A stretch of 64,000 nucleotides of DNA, taken from assembly GCA_903945175.1 (NCBI GenBank), contig CAJAUM010000115.1:975-64974 (forward strand). Reading direction: 5' to 3'. Position 1 is the first letter of the stretch. Every line of letters starts with the position of its first letter. Below the pieces are notes generated by a model, which made no database searches, was not told where the DNA came from, and saw only the letters and a program-made list of their open reading frames with translations. Below are positions 3,764 to 56,085 of this stretch, piece after piece. The position numbers and the translations under genes are program-made. The DNA is from an uncultured Bacteroidales bacterium. Lineage in GTDB: Bacteria; Bacteroidota; Bacteroidia; Bacteroidales; FEN-979.

Positions 3764-3783
3764 GTCACGCGTCACGCGTCACG
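3764..3783 (+). repeat. Heptamer tandem array (GTCACGC) x ~3, intergenic
   Basis: gtcacgc gtcacgc gtcacg read directly, 60 nt upstream of the mlaE start. Confidence 0.9.
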
Positions 3784-3842: not shown

Positions 3843-4586
3843 ATGCTGAAGATATTTTCAACCACCGGAGAGTATGTGCTTTTGATGCGGAAGGTCTTCA
3901 GCCGTCCGCAGAAACGCAGGATCTTCTGGAACCAGCTGATGACCGAAATCAACAGCCTGGGGTTGGAATCGCTGGGAATCGTTGCCTTTATCTCCGCCTT
4001 CATGGGAGCGGTAGTGGCCATTCAAACAGCCTACAACATCACCAGCCCCCTCATTCCCATGTCGATGGTTGGTTTTACCGTGCGCCAGAGCGTCATCCTC
4101 GAATTTTCTCCTACAGTGATCTCCCTGATCCTGGCCGGAAAGGTCGGATCAAGGATCGCCTCCGAGATTGGGACCATGCGGGTGACCGAGCAGATCGATG
4201 CGCTTGAAATCATGGGGGTGAATTCTGCCAACTTCCTTATTTTTCCAAAAATCGTTGCCTCCATGCTGATCAACCCGGTGCTGATCGTTTTCAGCATGTG
4301 GATGGGCATCCTGGGCGGCTGGCTGGCCATGGTTGCTACGGGGCTGGTCTCTACAAATGATTTTGTACAGGGAATCAGGATCGATTTTTTGGGATACACG
4401 ATATTTTATGCGCTGACCAAGACGGTGTTTTTTGCCTTTCTCATCTCCTCCATCTCGGGATTTTTTGGCTATATCACCCAGGGAGGCGCCCTGGAAGTTG
4501 GCCAGGCCAGCACAAAAGCAGTCGTTTTCAGCAGCGTCATGATCATCCTTTTCAACCTGGTATTAACACAACTTCTGCTCACATGA
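3843..4586 (+). CDS. mlaE: MlaE-family ABC transporter permease
   Basis: 247-aa multi-TM ORF (GIVAFISAFMGAVVAIQT..., EQIDALEIMGVN). Its stop overlaps the start of the following ATPase gene. Confidence 0.8.
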   Translation: MLKIFSTTGEYVLLMRKVFSRPQKRRIFWNQLMTEINSLGLESLGIVAFISAFMGAVVAIQTAYNITSPLIPMSMVGFTVRQSVILEFSPTVISLILAGKVGSRIASEIGTMRVTEQIDALEIMGVNSANFLIFPKIVASMLINPVLIVFSMWMGILGGWLAMVATGLVSTNDFVQGIRIDFLGYTIFYALTKTVFFAFLISSISGFFGYITQGGALEVGQASTKAVVFSSVMIILFNLVLTQLLLT

Positions 4587-10557: not shown

Positions 10558-12243
10558 ATGCCCAAGACCTGGAAAGAGATTCAACGTTACTGGTACATTT
10601 TCGCCCTCATCGTGACCGTGGGGTCTCTTCCTTTTTCAAAATTCGGAATCAGCTTTGGACAATTTATGCTTGCCGGTGGCTGGATTGTAGAGCGATTCAA
10701 TGCAAGGAAGCTGCTGACTTACTTGGCCGGACGATCATTCTGGCAGGTTATCCTCCTGATATTCCCCTATTCAGTGTACCTGCTGTTTGAAGGCATCATA
10801 ACCGGATTCAGGCAATTTTTCAGAAACAGGCCGGCGCTGCTGTTCAGCTCAATCATTCTGTTGCACCTGCTGGGCCTGTTTTTCACCACCGACTTTGATT
10901 ATGCGCTCAAGGATATACGGACAAAATTGCCCTTTCTGCTGTTTCCCTTGTTCCTTTCGACATCTGAAGCTTTTGACAGGAAGGCGTTTTACAGGTTTAT
11001 GCTATTCTTTGTCCTTGTCGTCCTCGTGCGATCGGGTTATAATGGCTGGATGATCCTGACCCAAAATTTTGTCGACATCCGCGATGTGTCGCACAATATT
11101 TCACACATCATCTTCAGCCTGTTGCTATCACTGAGTATTTTCACACTTGTATACCTGTCATTGAATAAGAATTATTTCAGGCCATGGATGCGGGTATTGG
11201 GATTTCTTGTGACGCTATGGTTTTTCGGATATCTTCTTATTTCACAGTCATTCACAGGCTATGCAATCACCCTGATCACGGCCTTGATTCTAACCCCGGT
11301 CTTGATTTTCAAAACCCGCAACCGGTTACTGAAAGCAGGGTTGATTTTGTGCATTCTTCTTGTGACAGGGCTCATTTTCCTGACGCTCAAATCCATCATC
11401 CACGATTATTATCATGTGAACCCGGTGGATTTTACAAAACTTGAAAAGGTTTCGTCGCGCGGAAATCCATATATCCATAGTATCAAAGAGCCGCAGACCG
11501 AAAATGGAAATTACCTGTGGATATATATTCAGTGGGATGAAATGCGCAGTGCCTGGAATAAACGCAGCAAGATTCCCTTCGACAGCCTGAACATGAAAAA
11601 GGGGCCTGTTGCGCATACGGTCATCCGGTTCCTGACCTCCAAGGGTTGGCGTAAAGATGCGGATGCCATCGAAAAGCTGACTGACCAGGAGCTCCTTGCC
11701 ATTGAAAAGGGGGTCGCAAACCAAGAGTTTCTGAAGGAATTAAGCATCCGGGGCCGGATTTATGAATTCCTGTGGGGGTTCGACAATTACATGGAAACAG
11801 GGAATCCGACCGGTTCAACGCTGATGCAACGACTTGAATTCTGGAAAGCCTCCATCGGAATCATCCGTGGAAACTGGCTTACGGGAGTCGGGACCGGAGA
11901 TATGAATCTTATCTTCAAGTCACAATACGAAAAGATGCATTCGAAGCTTTCGCCTGACCAGCGTTGGCGTTCACACAACCAGTTTTTATCCGTTTTTATC
12001 GGATTCGGGATCATCGGATTGCTTTGGTTTTTGGTGGCTGTTTTTTATCCGCCATTCATGTTGCGCAGACAGGACGATTTTTTTATGTTTGTTTTCCTGA
12101 TCATTGCTGTTTTGTCCATGCTCACCGAAGATACCATCGAATCACAAACCGGGGTGACATTTTTTGTCCTTTTCTATTCCTTTTTCCTTTTCGCCCGGAG
12201 GGAGAAAGATCTCATCTTTTCCAAACAAATCGTACATGGCTGA
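10558..12243 (+). CDS. O-antigen ligase / Wzy_C-like polytopic membrane protein
   Basis: About 10 TM helices, a large loop, and a late region (GVGTGDMN...HNQFLSVFIGFGIIG) resembling O-antigen ligase family proteins. The start was taken at the second Met to clear the deacetylase gene. Confidence 0.6.
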   Translation: MPKTWKEIQRYWYIFALIVTVGSLPFSKFGISFGQFMLAGGWIVERFNARKLLTYLAGRSFWQVILLIFPYSVYLLFEGIITGFRQFFRNRPALLFSSIILLHLLGLFFTTDFDYALKDIRTKLPFLLFPLFLSTSEAFDRKAFYRFMLFFVLVVLVRSGYNGWMILTQNFVDIRDVSHNISHIIFSLLLSLSIFTLVYLSLNKNYFRPWMRVLGFLVTLWFFGYLLISQSFTGYAITLITALILTPVLIFKTRNRLLKAGLILCILLVTGLIFLTLKSIIHDYYHVNPVDFTKLEKVSSRGNPYIHSIKEPQTENGNYLWIYIQWDEMRSAWNKRSKIPFDSLNMKKGPVAHTVIRFLTSKGWRKDADAIEKLTDQELLAIEKGVANQEFLKELSIRGRIYEFLWGFDNYMETGNPTGSTLMQRLEFWKASIGIIRGNWLTGVGTGDMNLIFKSQYEKMHSKLSPDQRWRSHNQFLSVFIGFGIIGLLWFLVAVFYPPFMLRRQDDFFMFVFLIIAVLSMLTEDTIESQTGVTFFVLFYSFFLFARREKDLIFSKQIVHG

Positions 12244-13234: not shown

Positions 13235-14482
13235 TCAGGGAGTCGGATTGACCCAGTCCCCATTTTCCTTGATGAGATTGATCAGCGCCTCCACCGCCAG
13301 GGATTCGTCAAGATTCTTTTCTACCAGTTGCTGTTTTTTGTACAAATTGATTTTGCCTTTGCCTGCGCCCACGTAACCATAGTGTGCGTCGGCCATTTCG
13401 CCTGGTCCGTTGACAACACAGCCCATCACGGCAATTTTCAGTCCGGACAGGTGCGATGTTTTAGCCTGAATATTTTCCAGCGCCGACTGGATATTAAATT
13501 GGGTCCGGCCGCATGAGGGGCAGGCAATAAACTCTGTTTTGGTAATCCGGGCCCCTGCTGCCTGGAGGATATTGTAAGCCACCGGAATTTCAAATTCAGG
13601 ATCTTCGGTGAGGGAAACCCTGATGGTATCGCCGATGCCATCGGCCAGCAAACTGCCGATCCCGATGGCTGACTTAATCCGTCCATCTTCTCCGGCGCCA
13701 GCTTCTGTGACCCCGAGGTGGAGCGGGTAATTCATACCAGCCTCCCTCATCTTCTCAACCAGCAAACGGTTAGCGGCGATCATCACCTTGGTGCTGCTGG
13801 CTTTCATAGATAAGACCAGATTTTGAAACGAGAGACTTTCGCAGACCAGTGCAAACTCCAGGGCTGACTGAACCATGCCCAACGGGGTGTCTCCATATTC
13901 GTTCATGATGCGATCGGAGAGCGACCCATGATTCACACCGATCCGGATGGCCGTGCCGTGATCTTTACAGATTTTTAAAAGCGGGGAGAGGCGCGTGGAA
14001 ATCAGTTCCAGCACATCACCCTCCGTGACGCGTGATGGATCAATCGTGACGCGTGATGGATCAATCGTGACGCGTGACGCATCAATCGTGACGCGTGACG
14101 CGTGACGCGTGACATTGCTTTTTTGACCTGGCATGTAATTCCCAGGATTAATCCTGATTTTTTCGACAATTCCTGCGGCGATTTCAGCGATTTTAGGATT
14201 AAAATGGACATCCGCGATCAGGGGGGTATTGTATCCGCGGAGGTGTAGTGCTTTTTTAATTTCCCGCAGATTTTCAGCCTCTTTAATTCCCGGAGTGGCA
14301 ATGCGGACATATTCACAGCCGGCTTCGATCATCCGGATGGCCTGTTCAACCGTCGCTTTGGTGTCGAGGCTGTTCGTGCTTGTCATCGACTGAACACGCA
14401 CGGGATTGTCCCCTCCCATGGGCAGATGGCCCACTTCAACAACCCGGGTTGCAAACCGCTGATATAATTGCTTGCCTTTCAT
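13235..14482 (-). CDS. ispG: 4-hydroxy-3-methylbut-2-en-1-yl diphosphate synthase, carrying an in-frame repeat insertion
   Basis: RINPGN, CPSCGRT and GCVVNGPGE motifs. 415 aa. Confidence 0.9.
   Translation of the reverse strand: MKGKQLYQRFATRVVEVGHLPMGGDNPVRVQSMTSTNSLDTKATVEQAIRMIEAGCEYVRIATPGIKEAENLREIKKALHLRGYNTPLIADVHFNPKIAEIAAGIVEKIRINPGNYMPGQKSNVTRHASRVTIDASRVTIDPSRVTIDPSRVTEGDVLELISTRLSPLLKICKDHGTAIRIGVNHGSLSDRIMNEYGDTPLGMVQSALEFALVCESLSFQNLVLSMKASSTKVMIAANRLLVEKMREAGMNYPLHLGVTEAGAGEDGRIKSAIGIGSLLADGIGDTIRVSLTEDPEFEIPVAYNILQAAGARITKTEFIACPSCGRTQFNIQSALENIQAKTSHLSGLKIAVMGCVVNGPGEMADAHYGYVGAGKGKINLYKKQQLVEKNLDESLAVEALINLIKENGDWVNPTP
14025..14113 (-). repeat. Heptamer-derived array inside ispG (three 21-nt super-units plus GTGACGC x ~3.7 on the plus strand)
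   Basis: Read directly: 14025-45, 14046-66 and 14067-87 are 21-mers gtgacgcgtga(t/c)g(g/c)atcaatc; 14088-14113 is gtgacgc repeated. Translates in frame as [30 protein letters not shown]. Confidence 0.95.
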
Positions 14483-14501: not shown

Positions 14502-15251
14502 CTAAATCAGCCCCTTCACCCTTGGCTTTCCTGCCACAAAATCTTTCAGGTAGAAGGGCTCAAAATAGGCCAGGCTTTCAAATTTTTTTTCTCTGAACTT
14601 CTCTTCTGCCAGCCTTGTGATGAATCTGGCTGATGCCTGGAATCCATCCATAAACAAAGCATTGGGATGATCGCCCAAGACAGGCTTGCATTTTTCAGCA
14701 CCTTCACCCCCGAAAGCAATCCTATGGTCAGTCAGGAGCTCCTGAAATGAAAAATCATCGATGATTTCAGCGCAAACCTCCCGAATCTCCCTGTTTTGCT
14801 GATCAAATACCGCACTGTAAACCTCCATTCTCCGCGCATCGATCATGGGACATAAAAAAATCCCGGATTGACCATTGGTCATTGGTAATTGGTCATTGGT
14901 CATTGGTAATTGGTCATCGGTCATTTGTAATTGGTCATTCATCCCCACGGCCATGGCCTGGAGTGTGTGAACGGCAATCAGGGGTTTATCGATGGCATAA
15001 CAAAGACCTTTTGCTGCAGCCACCCCAATGCGCAGACCGGTATATGAGCCGGGGCCCATGCTCACAGCAATGGCATCAAGATCAGTGATCTGAAATCCGG
15101 AAGATTTTATTAGGTCGTCGATAAACAGGGTGAGCATGGCAGAATGAACATTCCGTGCTGAAGATTCCTTTATTCCCAGGATCTTTTCATCGCGCGCCAA
15201 TGCCACGGAACAGACCTCAGTGGCCGTTTCAATGCAAAGGATCAGTGCCAT
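14502..15251 (-). CDS. tsaB: tRNA threonylcarbamoyladenosine biosynthesis protein TsaB, carrying an in-frame repeat insertion
   Basis: ILCIETATEVCSVAL N-terminus and GPGSYTGLRIGVAAAKG motif. 249 aa. Confidence 0.85.
   Translation of the reverse strand: MALILCIETATEVCSVALARDEKILGIKESSARNVHSAMLTLFIDDLIKSSGFQITDLDAIAVSMGPGSYTGLRIGVAAAKGLCYAIDKPLIAVHTLQAMAVGMNDQLQMTDDQLPMTNDQLPMTNGQSGIFLCPMIDARRMEVYSAVFDQQNREIREVCAEIIDDFSFQELLTDHRIAFGGEGAEKCKPVLGDHPNALFMDGFQASARFITRLAEEKFREKKFESLAYFEPFYLKDFVAGKPRVKGLI
14873..14942 (-). repeat. Heptamer tandem array inside tsaB (CATTGGT/AATTGGT x 10 on the plus strand)
   Basis: Ten consecutive 7-mers read directly, with a 21-nt higher-order pattern (cattggt cattggt aattggt). 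Translates in frame as the repeat tract MNDQLQMTDDQLPMTNDQLPMTNGQ within tsaB. Confidence 0.95.
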
Positions 15252-18144: not shown

Positions 18145-18230
18145 ATAATTTAAATATTCATCAAGGCATTAAGACGAAGAAATTGTTGTTTGGTTACATA
18201 TAACGATTTTCCGGATTCAATATTATTTTC

Positions 18231-18238
18231 TATTTTTG
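18231..18238 (+). promoter_or_regulatory. -7 promoter element (TATTTTTG) for the atp operon
   Basis: TAnnTTTG match 30 nt upstream of the atpB ATG at 18268. Confidence 0.45.
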
Positions 18239-18267
18239 CAACTCATTATAGATGCGTTATTGGTTTC

Positions 18268-19428
18268 ATGACAGCAAGCAGATCACTCGTACCCGCTTTT
18301 CGTTTCCTTGCCCTCAGTGTCCTAATGGGCTTTTTATTAATAAGCAGGATCTATGCCTCCGCCCAGGACCATACCCAGCTTAATGCGGCAAGCGACAGTG
18401 TTTCCACGCCGCAGAGTGAAGCTGAAAGCCATAAGGCAGAGGGAAAGTTCAACGCAGGCGAGATGATCCTGGAACATGTCGTTGACAACCATGAATGGCA
18501 TGTGGCCGAAATCGGCAGCCTTCACCTGACCATTCCACTCCCGATCATCCTGCTGTACGATGGCAGGATCTACACCTTTTGTTCAAGCCGCTTTCACAAT
18601 GAATCAGGCAGTTACCTTGGATTCAAGCTTGAAAAGGAGGGGCCCCACAAAGGAAAAATCATCAGGATTGGAAGCCAGGGTGAATCGGCGGAGTCCATTC
18701 CTGTTTATGACTTCTCCATCACCAAAATAGTACTTGCCATTTTCATCAGTACGTTTTTGCTGATCCTGATCTTTGTTTCTGTTGCCAACAGTTTCAAGCG
18801 AAACAGGAATAAAGCACCCAGCGGGCTGCAGTCACTTCTTGAGCCCCTGATTATTTTTATCCGGGATGACGTTGCAAAAAGTTCGATCGGAGAAAAAAAG
18901 TACGAAAAGTTTATGCCTTTTTTACTGACAGTATTCTTTTTTATTTTCTTTAATAACCTCTTCGGACTGATTCCCTTTTTTCCCGGAGGGGCCAACGTAA
19001 CCGGGAATATTGCCGTTACACTGGTCATGGCTGTGTTTACCTTTGTTATTACCACGATCAGCGGGAATAAACATTACTGGATCGATATCATCAATACGCC
19101 CGGGGTTCCCTGGTGGCTGAAGTTCCCGGTGCCTCTGATGCCGGTGGTTGAGATTATCGGAATCATCACCAAGCCATTTGTACTGATGATTCGTCTCTTT
19201 GCAAACATTACCGCCGGGCACATCATCGTGCTTGGTTTCGTTAGCCTGATCTTTATTTTCGGGGCTATCAGCGCGGCACTCGGTGTCGGAGTTTCTGTTG
19301 TTTCTGTTGCATTCATGCTTTTTATGAATTTACTGGAATTGCTGGTTGCCTTCATTCAGGCCTATGTGTTCACCCTGTTATCGGCGCTTTATTTCGGACT
19401 TGCAACAACAGAACCGGAACACCATTGA
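18268..19428 (+). CDS. atpB: F0F1 ATP synthase subunit a
   Basis: C-terminal helices with the RLFANITAGH motif. The start was taken at the ATG at 18268. The TGA stop is the first triplet of the following heptamer array. Confidence 0.9.
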   Translation: MTASRSLVPAFRFLALSVLMGFLLISRIYASAQDHTQLNAASDSVSTPQSEAESHKAEGKFNAGEMILEHVVDNHEWHVAEIGSLHLTIPLPIILLYDGRIYTFCSSRFHNESGSYLGFKLEKEGPHKGKIIRIGSQGESAESIPVYDFSITKIVLAIFISTFLLILIFVSVANSFKRNRNKAPSGLQSLLEPLIIFIRDDVAKSSIGEKKYEKFMPFLLTVFFFIFFNNLFGLIPFFPGGANVTGNIAVTLVMAVFTFVITTISGNKHYWIDIINTPGVPWWLKFPVPLMPVVEIIGIITKPFVLMIRLFANITAGHIIVLGFVSLIFIFGAISAALGVGVSVVSVAFMLFMNLLELLVAFIQAYVFTLLSALYFGLATTEPEHH

Positions 19429-19470
19429 CGAATGACGAGTGACGAATGACGAGTGACGAATGACGAATGA
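19426..19470 (+). repeat. Heptamer tandem array (TGACGAA/TGACGAG x 6.4) at the atpB stop
   Basis: tgacgaa tgacgag tgacgaa tgacgag tgacgaa tgacgaa tga read directly. Confidence 0.95.
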
Positions 19471-48455: not shown

Positions 48456-48483
48456 CGTGATGCGTGAAGCGTGACACGTGACA
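48456..48483 (+). repeat. Heptamer tandem array (CGTGATG CGTGAAG CGTGACA CGTGACA) 3 nt after the tonB stop
   Basis: Read directly. It belongs to the GTGAC/GTCAC class. Confidence 0.85.
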
Positions 48484-54432: not shown

Positions 54433-55466
54433 ATGAGCGTTGAAACATTTGTTACCGATAAAGCCGGCTTGATCACATTCTATGAAGCCATCATGGCCAG
54501 TCACGAAACCTATGCCCCGGTCGAGAAATTCGGCAAATTTGATTTTAAGCAGGTGAAAAGCCTGGCGGAATGTGACCCAGAATCGCCCATTGCAAAGACC
54601 CAGAGCATCAAGCCCCTTTTCTTCCCCAGGTCGGCCAAGGTGATGAAATATGTTGCCACAAGCACAGGAACGGAAGTTTCGGAGGTTGATGAGGATCCGC
54701 TTGCCGTTAAACGCGTCATCCTGGGCGCAAAACATTGCGATGCCCGTGCATTGCAGGTTCTTGACAAGGTATACAACTGGGATTACATCGATACCGATTA
54801 CCAGAAGCGCCGGGAAAATACTGTGATTATCTCGACCCGTTGCGACAAGGCTGACACCCATTGTTTCTGCACTTCGCTCGATTACGATGTTGAAAATCTC
54901 AATGCCATGGATGTTTTGGTTGTACATGGATCCGATGGAAAGGTTTACATCAAAGCCAGGACAGAGAAAGGTTCTACACTTTTAAATACAGAGGTCACGC
55001 GTCACGCGTCACGTGTCACGGAAGAAGCCGCAGCACCCGACCTGAAAAAGCAATACGAAGCCTTTGCGGGTTCTTTCAGGCTTAAGATGGATTATTCGGA
55101 GGTTAATTCAAAATTGTCGAAGATCTTCGACACCCCGGAATTTGAAAATGTCTCGGGAAATTGTGTGAGCTGCAACACCTGTGCCTTTGTTTGTCCGACC
55201 TGCCATTGCTTCAAAATCTCCGATGAAAAAATCAAAGATACAGGGTTGCGATATAAAAGCTATGACTCCTGTAACAACGGATATTTTACCCTGATGGCGG
55301 GCGGTCACAATCCCCGTCCGGCCAAGTACCGTCGCTGGCGGCAGCGTGCCATGCACAAGTTTGTATACTACAAGGAGCGCTTTGGCGAGAACCTTTGTGT
55401 GGGGTGCGGTAAATGTACCATAGCCTGCCCGGTAAACATCAGTATTTTTGAGGTGGTTAATCAGGT

Positions 55467-55488
<22 letters not shown>
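54433..55488 (+). CDS. flxB: AsrA / sulfhydrogenase-beta-like 4Fe-4S protein (FlxB-like) with an in-frame heptamer insertion and a repeat-encoded C-terminus
   Basis: [16 protein letters not shown] and [12 protein letters not shown] motifs. The last 7 codons and the TAG stop lie in the GGCAGTA array. Confidence 0.65.
54994..55021 (+). repeat. Heptamer tandem array (GTCACGC x 4, last two degenerate) inside flxB
   Basis: gtcacgc gtcacgc gtcacgt gtcacgg read directly. Translates in frame as VTRHASRVT. Confidence 0.95.
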
Positions 55489-55627
<139 letters not shown>

Positions 55628-55633
55628 AAGGGG

Positions 55634-56020
55634 ATGGAAGTGGAAAAGAAAAAAATTGTTTCCTATAAAGATCTTGAGGTCTGGAAAAAGGGGGTCCGAT
55701 TTACCATTGAAATCTACAGAATTACCAGCGAGTTTCCAAGTAGGGAACAATTCGGGCTTACCAATCAGTTGCGCAGGGCCGCATCCTCTATCCCTGCCAA
55801 TATTGCAGAAGGATATGGTCGTGAGAGCACGAAAAATTATATTCAGTTCCTTAAAACTGCCAGAGGTTCATTGAATGAAGTCGAAACTTTTCTTTATATA
55901 GGATTTGAATTGGAATATCTTAATAAACAAACCCTTGACAACTTGATTATTAAAACCACTGAACTTGGAAAAATGATGAATAGCCTGATCAAAAAACTAA
56001 ACCCTAACCCCACTGCCTAA
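55634..56020 (+). CDS. Four-helix-bundle protein (23S rRNA intervening-sequence protein / Avd family)
   Basis: [10 protein letters not shown]...[30 protein letters not shown]...[16 protein letters not shown] are hallmark motifs of the family. Confidence 0.9.
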
Positions 56021-56045
56021 TGCCTACTGCCTATTGCCTATTGCC
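56011..56045 (-). repeat. Inverted copy of the GGCAGTA/GGCAATA array (5 units)
   Basis: cactgcc taatgcc tactgcc tattgcc tattgcc. Its reverse complement matches array units 13-17 (55551-55585) at 33/35 positions. It contains the TAA stop of the four-helix-bundle gene. Confidence 0.95.
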
Positions 56046-56085
56046 TTATCCCAATCAAGATTAACAAAACATCACACACATAACT

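What the first reader, a model, noticed from the sequence alone, without database searches (positions are those of the whole stretch)
14025..14113. In-frame 89-nt repeat array inside the essential isoprenoid gene ispG
Seen: three perfect or near-perfect 21-nt units plus about 3.7 GTGACGC heptamers sit inside the ispG ORF. They translate as [30 protein letters not shown], just after the conserved RINPGN segment and before the IRIGVNHGSL segment. The ORF stays open and both catalytic halves (TIM-barrel part, CPSCGRT/GCVVNGPGE cluster part) are intact. Inference: a recent repeat expansion tolerated as a surface loop. A single-unit (7-nt) change would frameshift an essential gene, so the tract is a potential mutational hazard or switch.
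Basis: partly seen in the sequence, partly recalled or inferred. Interest (0 to 1): 0.7.

Follow-up and report, generated by a model that had tools for sequence, protein, structure and literature searches.

The report
Heptamer microsatellite loop inside ispG
A 90-base tract built from the 7-base unit GTCACGC sits in frame in a floppy loop of the isoprenoid enzyme IspG. It is one of many 7-base microsatellites in this Bacteroidota genome. In nature it changes length only in 21-base (7-amino-acid) steps, so it is a real but essentially known kind of repeat.

Summary
Window 14024-14113 (minus strand, ispG 13235-14482) holds 12 full heptamers plus a 6-nt partial unit. They derive from GTCACGC and now form 21-nt units that encode [28 protein letters not shown] and VT. 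It is not an assembly artefact: the exact protein occurs on 18 contigs from independent assemblies. Sister alleles of 408 and 401 aa differ only by whole 7-aa units, giving four tract alleles on 37 contigs, all in frame.

The tract is not special to ispG. Period-7 repeats are the only enriched period in the window (11 exact runs, against 0 for periods 5, 6 and 8-13). GTCACGC arrays occur at four window loci, and one puts the same VTRHASRVT peptide into an unrelated Fe-S protein.

The seed is old. RVTRHASR at this site is the modal state in related Bacteroidota IspGs. Other lineages carry different heptamers at the same site (GGGACGC, GGGACAC, AGGGACG, GAACCCG, GCAAAGC), and the loop ranges from 23 to 90 aa.

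The tract lies between strand 108-111 and helix 154-175 of the TIM barrel, between two substrate-binding arginines, and is predicted to be disordered.

Best reading: a slippage-prone heptanucleotide microsatellite in a permissive loop, filtered by selection to 21-nt steps. I found no evidence for an on/off switch. It is a new member of a known kind, of moderate interest.

The parts
13235..14482 (-). ispG (gcpE) coding sequence, 415 aa, short two-domain type
   Evidence: ORF; PF04551 GcpE E 1e-124; PDB hits 3NOY, 4MWA, 2Y0F; Foldseek top hits are IspG structures.
14024..14113 (-). Heptamer-derived in-frame tract: 12 full heptamers plus a 6-nt partial unit, 90 nt, aa 124-153, [30 protein letters not shown]
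   Evidence: Predicted disordered (pLDDT < 50 for residues 119-151).
14087..14113 (-). Perfect (GTCACGC)x3.9 run, the only remaining pure heptamer stretch. It is the ancestral core that encodes VTRHASR
   Evidence: Exact period-7 run. The same core is present in orthologues L004, L005, L085, L086, L087 and L090.
14030..14092 (-). Three 21-nt higher-order units (GTCACGA TTGATSC RTCACGC) encoding VTIDASR, VTIDPSR and VTIDPSR. This is the part that varies in copy number between natural alleles
   Evidence: TRF period 21, 96% matches. Alleles with 1, 2 or 3 such units: L091, L084, P0122-P0125 and the window.
3764..3783 (+). Same motif, (GTCACGC)x2.9, intergenic, about 60 nt upstream of mlaE (3843-4586)
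   Evidence: It is 42 nt longer in the same-species contig L091. An array of the same motif lies upstream of mlaE in L004.
54994..55020 (+). Same motif, (GTCACGC)x3.9, in frame in an unrelated Fe-S protein gene (54433-55488, PF17179 Fer4_22). It encodes VTRHASRVT
   Evidence: The [10 protein letters not shown] segment is shared by many orthologues.
48456..48482 (-). Degenerate GTCACGC-family array (GTCACGT GTCACGC TTCACGC ATCACG), intergenic
14873..14939 (-). A different heptamer array (AATGACC/AATTACC, x9.6) in frame in the neighbouring gene tsaB (14502-15251). It encodes QLPMTND-type repeats and shows the phenomenon is general
   Evidence: Orthologous TsaB proteins are 235, 249, 253 and 256 aa, with other heptamers at the same site.

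Best explanation
The tract is a heptanucleotide microsatellite, (GTCACGC)n, embedded in ispG. It is one member of a genome-wide and clade-wide population of 7-nt tandem repeats in these Bacteroidota.

Because 7 and 3 share no factor, three heptamers always encode the same cyclic 7-aa peptide (VTRHASR), whatever the phase. The sense orientation has no stop codon. The antisense unit GCGTGAC puts TGA in every frame, which fixes the orientation inside genes.

The array sits in the loop after the fourth barrel strand (RINPGN), just before the following helix of the TIM-barrel domain, and is translated as a disordered loop. The array grows and shrinks by replication slippage or unequal recombination. 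In an indispensable gene only changes of 21 nt (three units) survive.

In this lineage, point mutations turned part of the array into a 21-nt higher-order unit (VTIDxSR). That unit is now what is gained and lost, and it is frame-safe.

Shown here: the sequence anatomy, the in-frame allele series, the orthologous hot spot, and the predicted disorder. Inferred: slippage as the mechanism, near-neutrality of the loop, and the essentiality of ispG in this organism.
For: Anatomy and frame.

Period 7 is the only enriched period. The window has 11 exact runs of at least 18 nt, against 0 for periods 5, 6 and 8-13. The same bias holds across 80 or more related loci.

The same motif occurs at 4 window loci against 0 expected. 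It yields the same peptide in an unrelated protein.

Natural alleles: 415 aa on 18 contigs, 408 aa on 4 contigs and 401 aa on 15 contigs. There are four different tract compositions, on proteins that are otherwise identical or nearly so. All are in frame, and the DNA was seen in L084 and L091.

The same site carries (CGTCACG)x4 in L004, L005, L007 and L008. It carries GGGACAC plus GTCACGC in L087 and L090, GGGACGC in L088, about 20 units of AGGGACG in L089, GAACCCG in L009 and GCAAAGC in L017. Further heptamers sit there in the Porphyromonadaceae-labelled MAGs L015 and L016. Loop length is 23-90 aa, and 29 of 120 homologues show 7-aa periodicity.

Structure: the tract is an insertion relative to 3NOY, 4MWA and 2Y0F. 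pLDDT is 24-35 over residues 119-151, between strand 108-111 and helix 154-175.

Literature: heptanucleotide repeats are the most abundant class of 5-11-nt long simple repeats in most of the bacterial genomes surveyed, and were attributed to polymerase slippage (Mrazek 2007, as summarised in PMC4679880). Heptamer arrays also occur in Bacteroidetes and inside ORFs (PMC4679880), and are usually under-represented in coding DNA (PMC4692102).
Against: Slippage itself was not observed; only its presumed products were.

Codons inside the tract are more conserved between species than synonymous divergence predicts. Pooled over L004, L005, L007 and L008, 18 of 24 codons are identical, against about 0.33 outside the tract. 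Pure neutrality does not predict this. It needs either repeated homogenisation by slippage or some DNA-level constraint.

The loop lies on the catalytic face, between two substrate-binding arginines (window R110 and R180, matching T. thermophilus Arg110 and Arg141, PMC11218510). 'Harmless surface loop' is therefore assumed, not shown.

An orthologue with about 20 near-perfect heptamers in ispG (L089) is hard to reconcile with frequent single-unit slippage.
Confidence: 0.8

Rival explanations
1. Contingency (phase-variation) locus. Gain or loss of one heptamer switches ispG off and on, producing non-growing or metabolically altered subpopulations.
For: The unit length is not a multiple of 3. 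A perfect 27-nt heptamer run remains. Arrays of this motif change length between strains. An orthologue carries about 20 near-perfect units in ispG (L089).
Against: All alleles on the 37 contigs of the same-species cluster are in frame and full length, as are the 120 closest homologues. The units that differ between alleles are 21-nt units, not 7-nt units. ispG is essential where it has been tested (E. coli, PMC11218510). Only 3.9 perfect units remain, which is short for a hypermutable tract (my own knowledge of phase-variable simple repeats). Assemblies and gene calls would under-report frameshifted minority variants, so this is not a strict exclusion.
Confidence: 0.04
2. Selected functional loop. 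The arginine- and histidine-rich flexible segment next to the active site is kept, and length-tuned, because it helps dock the Fe-S domain or an acidic electron donor (flavodoxin or ferredoxin), or gates the active site.
For: RVTRHASR is retained in 58 of 120 homologues at a fixed loop length of 40 aa. The position is between substrate-binding R110 and R180, on the catalytic face (PMC11218510). Codon-level conservation exceeds that of the flanks. The docking site of the electron donor on IspG is unknown (PMC11218510).
Against: Expansions in sister lineages have quite different chemistry (GTRDTGHG, GRGTKDE, GSRVTGS, QSAMRKA). Loop lengths range from 23 to 90 aa, and some close relatives have lost the segment (P0017 and P0093, 23-aa loops). 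The same peptide occurs in an unrelated protein and the same DNA occurs in intergenic spacers, so the sequence is dictated by DNA and not by IspG function. Model confidence in this region is very low.
Confidence: 0.1
3. The GTCACGC arrays are products of a dedicated spreading mechanism, such as a tiny mobile repeat or a sequence-specific writer. On this view the ispG tract is an insertion, not a local slippage product.
For: The same motif occurs at four loci within 64 kb and at two loci in L004. Particular heptamers dominate particular genomes in the literature, and horizontal spread has been proposed for them (TAACTGA, PMC4679880; GGGNATC, PMC4692102).
Against: The arrays sit at orthologous positions (ispG loop, upstream of mlaE, Fer4_22 linker) in species that share only 72-90% protein identity. 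This points to vertical inheritance. No flanking target duplications or terminal structures are visible in the sequence. Dozens of unrelated heptamer motifs occur in related loci, which fits a general bias toward period 7 better than one mobile sequence.
Confidence: 0.05
4. Assembly artefact: a collapsed or chimeric repeat.
For: Short-read assemblers can misjudge the copy number of tandem repeats. The window's tract of 90 nt is close to read length.
Against: Loci L001-L003 have tract DNA identical to the window, and their ispG CDS is 99.9-100% identical to it. They come from three separate ENA assemblies, and further placements are in ENA, JGI and NCBI samples. The 415-aa protein occurs on 18 contigs. 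The ORF is intact in every case.
Confidence: 0.01

Closest known systems
Heptanucleotide long simple sequence repeats of bacterial genomes (Mrazek, Guo and Shah 2007, as summarised in PMC4679880)
   Same: The unit is 7 nt and the copies are tandem. Period 7 is specifically enriched across the genome. Copy number differs between strains. Slippage is the proposed mechanism.
   Different: That survey found repeats inside genes mainly for unit lengths that are multiples of three. Here a 7-nt unit lies in the middle of a housekeeping enzyme gene, and it persists there across a whole clade.
TAACTGA heptamer repeats of Beggiatoaceae, cyanobacteria and some Bacteroidetes (MacGregor 2015, PMC4679880)
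   Same: One favoured heptamer is dispersed at many loci. It is mostly intergenic, near gene starts or ends. The occasional in-ORF copies occur only in the orientation without stop codons and give a 7-aa repeat. Bacteroidetes are among the carriers.
   Different: The motif is different (GTCACGC). The in-ORF TAACTGA sets were mostly at protein termini or in hypothetical proteins. Here the array is internal, in a loop between a strand and a helix of the catalytic domain of IspG.
GGGNATC G-quadruplex-forming heptamer repeats of Xanthomonas and Nostoc (Rehm 2015, PMC4692102)
   Same: Heptamer arrays are dispersed, with a preference for about four units. They are common close to ORF ends.
   Different: GTCACGC has no G-tracts, so the window's tract is not a G-quadruplex motif. 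Several orthologous ispG arrays (GGGACGC, GGGACAC, AGGGACG) do fit G3-N4 on the coding strand. Those repeats are under-represented in coding DNA.
Phase-variable simple-repeat contingency loci (for example the tetranucleotide repeats of Haemophilus influenzae, PMC2651432)
   Same: A tandem repeat whose unit is not a multiple of 3 lies inside a reading frame.
   Different: The gene is a core metabolic enzyme, not a surface or restriction-modification gene. Only in-frame alleles were seen, and the active unit is 21 nt.

Membership tests
IspG/GcpE (HMBPP synthase), two-domain bacterial type | GcpE family signature over the whole protein | tested here: met
   PF04551 E 1e-124 over residues 12-405. 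PDB IspG chains 3NOY, 4MWA and 2Y0F match at E 8e-70 to 1e-49. The Foldseek top hits are IspG structures.
IspG/GcpE (HMBPP synthase), two-domain bacterial type | [quoted passage not shown] | tested here: met
   C321, C324, C355, E362, R110 and R180 are invariant in 31 aligned sequences. By the alignment, R110 and R180 match T. thermophilus Arg110 and Arg141, which PMC11218510 lists as substrate-binding.
Heptanucleotide simple sequence repeat (bacterial long SSR) | Head-to-tail copies of a 7-nt unit, beyond chance | tested here: met
   12 full units plus a 6-nt partial unit, of which 3.9 are perfect. 0.00 expected in shuffles.
Heptanucleotide simple sequence repeat (bacterial long SSR) | Genome-wide over-representation of period 7 relative to neighbouring periods | tested here: met
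   Within the 64-kb window, 11 exact runs for period 7 and 0 for periods 5, 6 and 8-13. Related loci show the same bias. The whole genome is not available.
Heptanucleotide simple sequence repeat (bacterial long SSR) | Copy-number polymorphism between close strains | tested here: met
   ispG tract of 48, 69 or 90 nt. The array upstream of mlaE is 20 or 62 nt.
Phase-variable contingency locus | Out-of-frame (OFF) alleles coexist with in-frame (ON) alleles in natural populations | tested here: not met
   All alleles on the 37 contigs of the same-species cluster are in frame and full length. Read-level minority variants could not be examined.
Phase-variable contingency locus | Long uninterrupted tract of the frameshifting unit | tested here: not met
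   Only 3.9 perfect heptamers remain. The rest is interrupted and organised as 21-nt units.
G-quadruplex-forming heptamer repeats (GGGNATC type) | Four or more G-tracts of at least 3 G spaced by short loops | tested here: not met
   GTCACGC has no G-tract. The orthologous arrays in L087, L088 and L089 do have GGG every 7 nt.
Structured RNA or regulatory element in the tract | Match to a curated RNA family, or unusually stable folding | tested here: not met
   No Rfam family reaches its gathering score anywhere in the window. The DNA fold z-score is -1.03.

The most novel reading that the evidence does not exclude
The heptamer arrays are not passive slippage debris. On this reading the loop after strand 4 of IspG, next to the active site, is kept as a heptamer landing pad across Bacteroidia because of one of two things. 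Either a DNA- or RNA-level property of the array or its tunable peptide length modulates IspG (docking of the Fe-S domain or of the electron donor, or translation rate). Or an unrecognised sequence-specific process maintains and re-homogenises particular heptamers such as GTCACGC at fixed genomic addresses. Either would explain three observations: codon-level conservation above the synonymous background, the same motif at orthologous loci in species with only about 73% protein identity, and the tolerance of about 20 frameshift-prone units in an essential gene.
Probability: 0.1. Interest if true: 0.7.

Novelty: new member of a known kind. Interest (0 to 1): 0.38.

Why it matters
This case is a clean natural experiment on how a frameshift-prone microsatellite survives inside an indispensable gene. 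A 7-nt repeat is filtered to 21-nt steps. It then decays into a frame-safe 21-nt unit that takes over as the variable element.

It also shows that one loop on the catalytic face of IspG, between two substrate-binding arginines, tolerates 23 to 90 residues of almost arbitrary sequence. That is useful for engineering or tagging this enzyme, which is a drug target and a bottleneck of the MEP pathway.

For annotation, it warns that 7-aa periodic low-complexity inserts in Bacteroidota proteins are dictated by DNA, not by functional motifs. If the minority reading were true, it would point to an unknown process that maintains specific heptamers at fixed sites.

Tried and rejected
- **Assembly artefact:** rejected. 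L001-L003 carry tract DNA identical to the window, from three separate assemblies, and the 415-aa protein is on 18 contigs.
- **RNA element:** no Rfam hit in the window. Folding of the tract as single-stranded DNA is not unusual (z -1.03).
- **Species identity:** the GTDB species-representative scan found no genome of the same species. The best match is 74% identity, in Bacteroidetes and Bacteroidales MAGs from lakes. The organism can therefore only be called an uncultured Bacteroidota (Bacteroidales-like) bacterium.
- **Metagenome flank scan:** the exact 23-nt flank gave only one extra contig, L091.
- **P0025:** its DNA could not be fetched.
- **Protein-level repeat domain or coiled coil:** rejected. 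The units contain proline, the model is disordered, and the same peptide occurs in an unrelated protein.
- **Fer4_22 site:** I checked whether the GTCACGC array in this gene is also a length hot spot. It is not. Orthologues are 345-357 aa, with [10 protein letters not shown] widely conserved.
- **PF05635 genes and heptamer arrays:** I looked for a link in the loci held and in the literature. There is only one such gene in all the data held and no paper.
- **Loop geometry:** distances from the loop to the active site could not be measured, because model coordinates are not exposed.

Full report
**1. The observation**

The window carries a 415-aa ORF on the minus strand (13235-14482). It is IspG/GcpE: PF04551 matches at E 1e-124, solved IspG chains 3NOY, 4MWA and 2Y0F match by sequence, and Foldseek places the model on IspG structures.

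Tandem Repeats Finder reports an array of period 21 at 14024-14098 (3.6 copies, 96% matches, score 136). It also reports period 7 at 14066-14113.

Read on the gene strand, the 90 nt are 12 full heptamers plus a 6-nt partial unit: GTCACGC x3, GTCACGA, TTGATGC, GTCACGC, GTCACGA, TTGATCC, ATCACGC, GTCACGA, TTGATCC, ATCACGC, GTCACG. They encode aa 124-153, [30 protein letters not shown].

A 20-nt probe of the motif (up to 2 mismatches) matches 7 times at 4 loci in the window, where 100 dinucleotide-preserving shuffles give none.

**2. It is real, and it varies in 21-nt steps**

- The exact 415-aa protein is recorded on 18 contigs from ENA, JGI and NCBI material.
- Three independent assemblies (L001-L003) have tract DNA identical to the window. 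Their ispG CDS is 99.9-100% identical to it.
- The same 90%-identity cluster holds only three lengths: 415, 408 and 401 aa.
- The sequences show four tract alleles:
  - A-B-C-C, 415 aa
  - A-B-C, 408 aa
  - A-C, 401 aa
  - A-B, 401 aa; this is L091, where the DNA was seen directly
  - Here A = VTRHASR, B = VTIDASR and C = VTIDPSR.
- P0121, P0122, P0124 and P0125 are identical outside the tract. The tract therefore changes faster than the rest of the protein, and always by whole 7-aa units.
- No out-of-frame form was seen.

**3. It is not a peculiarity of ispG**

Exact tandem runs of at least 2 units plus 4 nt number 11 for period 7 in the window, and 0 for periods 5, 6 and 8-13.

The arrays in the window:

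| Position | Unit and copies | Context |
|---|---|---|
| 3764 | GTCACGC x2.9 | intergenic, about 60 nt upstream of mlaE |
| 14024-14113 | GTCACGC-derived | in frame in ispG |
| 14873-14939 | AATGACC/AATTACC x9.6 | in frame in tsaB |
| 19426 | TGACGAA x6.4 | starts on a stop codon |
| 37028 | CAATGGC x3.7 | intergenic |
| 48456 | degenerate GTCACGC | intergenic |
| 54994 | GTCACGC x3.9 | in frame in a Fer4_22 protein gene, encodes VTRHASRVT |
| 55467-55624 | GGCAGTA x22.6 | intergenic |
| 56014 | TGCCTAY x4.7 | overlaps the end of the PF05635 ORF (55634-56020) |

The same heptamer therefore writes the same peptide into two unrelated proteins. This follows from arithmetic: 7 and 3 are coprime, so three heptamers give the same cyclic 7-aa peptide in any phase. 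GTCACGC has no stop codon in the sense orientation. Its complement GCGTGAC gives TGA in every frame, which explains the orientation inside genes.

**4. The site is an old hot spot**

Among the 120 closest homologues (67-98% identity, Bacteroidota MAGs), the segment between RINPGN and IRIGVNHGS is 23-90 aa long. In 58 of them it is 40 aa, typically YLPSRVTRHASRENNPG... In 29 of them it shows 7-aa periodicity.

DNA from orthologous loci at this site:

| Locus | Array at the site |
|---|---|
| L004, L005, L007, L008 | (CGTCACG)x4 |
| L090 | (CACGGGA)x3 then (GTCACGC)x4 |
| L087 | long (CACGGGA) arrays then (GTCACGC)x3 |
| L088 | (GGGACGC) arrays |
| L089 | about 20 units of AGGGACG/AAGGACG |
| L009 | (GAACCCG)x4 |
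| L017 | (GCAAAGC)n |

IspGs at only 53-54% identity from Porphyromonadaceae-labelled MAGs (L015, L016) also carry heptamer-derived inserts there.

The GTCACGC core is thus ancestral to a broad clade. Only the VTIDxSR units are recent.

At identical residues with four or more codons, codon identity between the window and L004, L005, L007 or L008 is about 0.33 outside the tract. Inside it, 18 of 24 codons are identical when the four comparisons are pooled. These are small, phylogenetically dependent numbers. They fit repeated homogenisation by slippage, or some DNA-level constraint.

Other arrays also persist at orthologous places:
- GTCACGC upstream of mlaE in L004.
- The stop-codon array at 19426 in L086, and the tsaB site with different heptamers in L086, L087 and L090.
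- [10 protein letters not shown] in many Fer4_22 orthologues, at constant length.

**5. Place in the protein**

HMMER alignments to solved structures break exactly here. Query residues 117-168 face A. aeolicus residues 116-126.

The AlphaFold2 model (31-sequence alignment, mean pLDDT 71.8) has a strand at 108-111 and pLDDT below 50 for residues 119-151 (block means 24-35). A helix at 154-175 starts right after the tract.

By the alignment, window R110 and R180 correspond to T. thermophilus Arg110 and Arg141, which bind the substrate (PMC11218510). The insert is therefore in the loop between a strand and the following helix, on the catalytic face of the barrel. I could not measure distances, so 'harmless' remains an inference. 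It rests on the very wide range of lengths and chemistries that relatives tolerate.

**6. Mechanism**

The best-supported reading is a slippage-prone heptanucleotide microsatellite in a permissive loop. Heptanucleotide repeats are the most abundant class of 5-11-nt simple repeats in most of the bacterial genomes surveyed, and were attributed to polymerase slippage (Mrazek 2007, cited in PMC4679880). They occur in some Bacteroidetes and occasionally in ORFs (PMC4679880). They are generally under-represented in coding DNA (PMC4692102).

In an indispensable gene, only 21-nt changes survive. ispG is essential in E. coli (PMC11218510); essentiality here is inferred.

In this lineage, point mutations produced a 21-nt higher-order unit. 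That unit is now the one that is gained and lost, which removes most of the frameshift risk. Only the 27-nt perfect run remains a hazard.

**7. Rivals**

- **Phase-variation switch:** not supported. All alleles are in frame, the active unit is 21 nt and the perfect run is short.
- **Selected functional loop:** cannot be excluded. The RVTRHASR core is widely kept and lies near the active site. But the expansions differ radically in chemistry, some relatives lack the segment, and the sequence is clearly dictated by DNA.
- **Dedicated spreading mechanism:** suggested by the recurrence of one motif. It is countered by orthologous positions across species and by the dozens of other motifs in related loci.
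- **Artefact:** excluded.

**8. Verdict**

The finding is real and correctly described. It misses that this is a genome-wide and clade-wide heptamer phenomenon with an ancient seed, and the 'switch' idea has no support. It is a new member of a known kind, of moderate interest.

Noticed in passing
window 55467-56046: A 128-aa gene of the '23S rRNA intervening sequence protein' / four-helix-bundle (bAvd-like) family sits at 55634-56020 (PF05635, E 1e-40). It is wedged between two genes of an Fe-S/FAD oxidoreductase operon. It is flanked by inverted heptamer arrays: (GGCAGTA/GGCAATA)x22.6 upstream and the reverse-complement units (TGCCTAY)x4.7 downstream. The arms are 33-47 nt long and 87-94% complementary. 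On an operon transcript the arms could pair into a long stem around the gene, reminiscent of the RNase III-processed stems of rRNA intervening sequences (my own knowledge).
   Followed up: partly
window 14873-14939 (tsaB, 14502-15251, minus strand): A second in-frame heptamer array, (AATGACC/AATTACC)x9.6, lies in the gene next to ispG and encodes NDQLQMTDDQLPMTNDQLPMTNG. Orthologous TsaB proteins are 235, 249, 253 and 256 aa and carry different heptamers (AATTACC, AATTAAA, GTGCAAA) at the same site. tsaB therefore has its own heptamer hot spot.
   Followed up: partly
window 3764-3783; L091 about 10895-10915; L004 17959-17979: The (GTCACGC) array about 60 nt upstream of mlaE is 42 nt (6 units) longer in a same-species contig that is 99.3% identical over the flanks. 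An array of the same motif also lies upstream of mlaE in a species whose IspG is only 74% identical, apparently in the opposite orientation relative to mlaE.
   Followed up: partly
window 54994-55020 (gene 54433-55488): (GTCACGC)x3.9 lies in frame in a Fer4_22 4Fe-4S dicluster protein and gives VTRHASRVT. The [10 protein letters not shown] segment is shared by many orthologues down to about 80% identity, at nearly constant protein length (345-357 aa). This copy of the array is therefore old and static, unlike the one in ispG.
   Followed up: yes
window 19426-19470: (TGACGAA/TGACGAG)x6.4 begins exactly on the TGA stop codon of ORF 18190-19428. A degenerate version is at the same place in L086, the species whose IspG is 83% identical.
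   Followed up: partly
L087 6371-6469; L088 6381-6504; L089 6348-6484: Orthologous ispG genes carry G-rich heptamer arrays (GGGACAC, GGGACGC, AGGGACG) on the coding strand, with GGG every 7 nt. That is the canonical G-quadruplex spacing. L089 has about 20 units with a 41-nt perfect run inside this essential gene.
   Followed up: no
L015 2540-4864; L016 9971-11170: A Porphyromonadaceae-labelled MAG contig has 10 exact heptamer runs in 5.7 kb. Its IspG has heptamer-derived peptides at two internal sites: VTRHSSPVT before PLIADVHF, and PATRTLQPATRNLQPATRHSSLVTRH after RINPGN. This shows the phenomenon extends to more distant Bacteroidales.
   Followed up: partly
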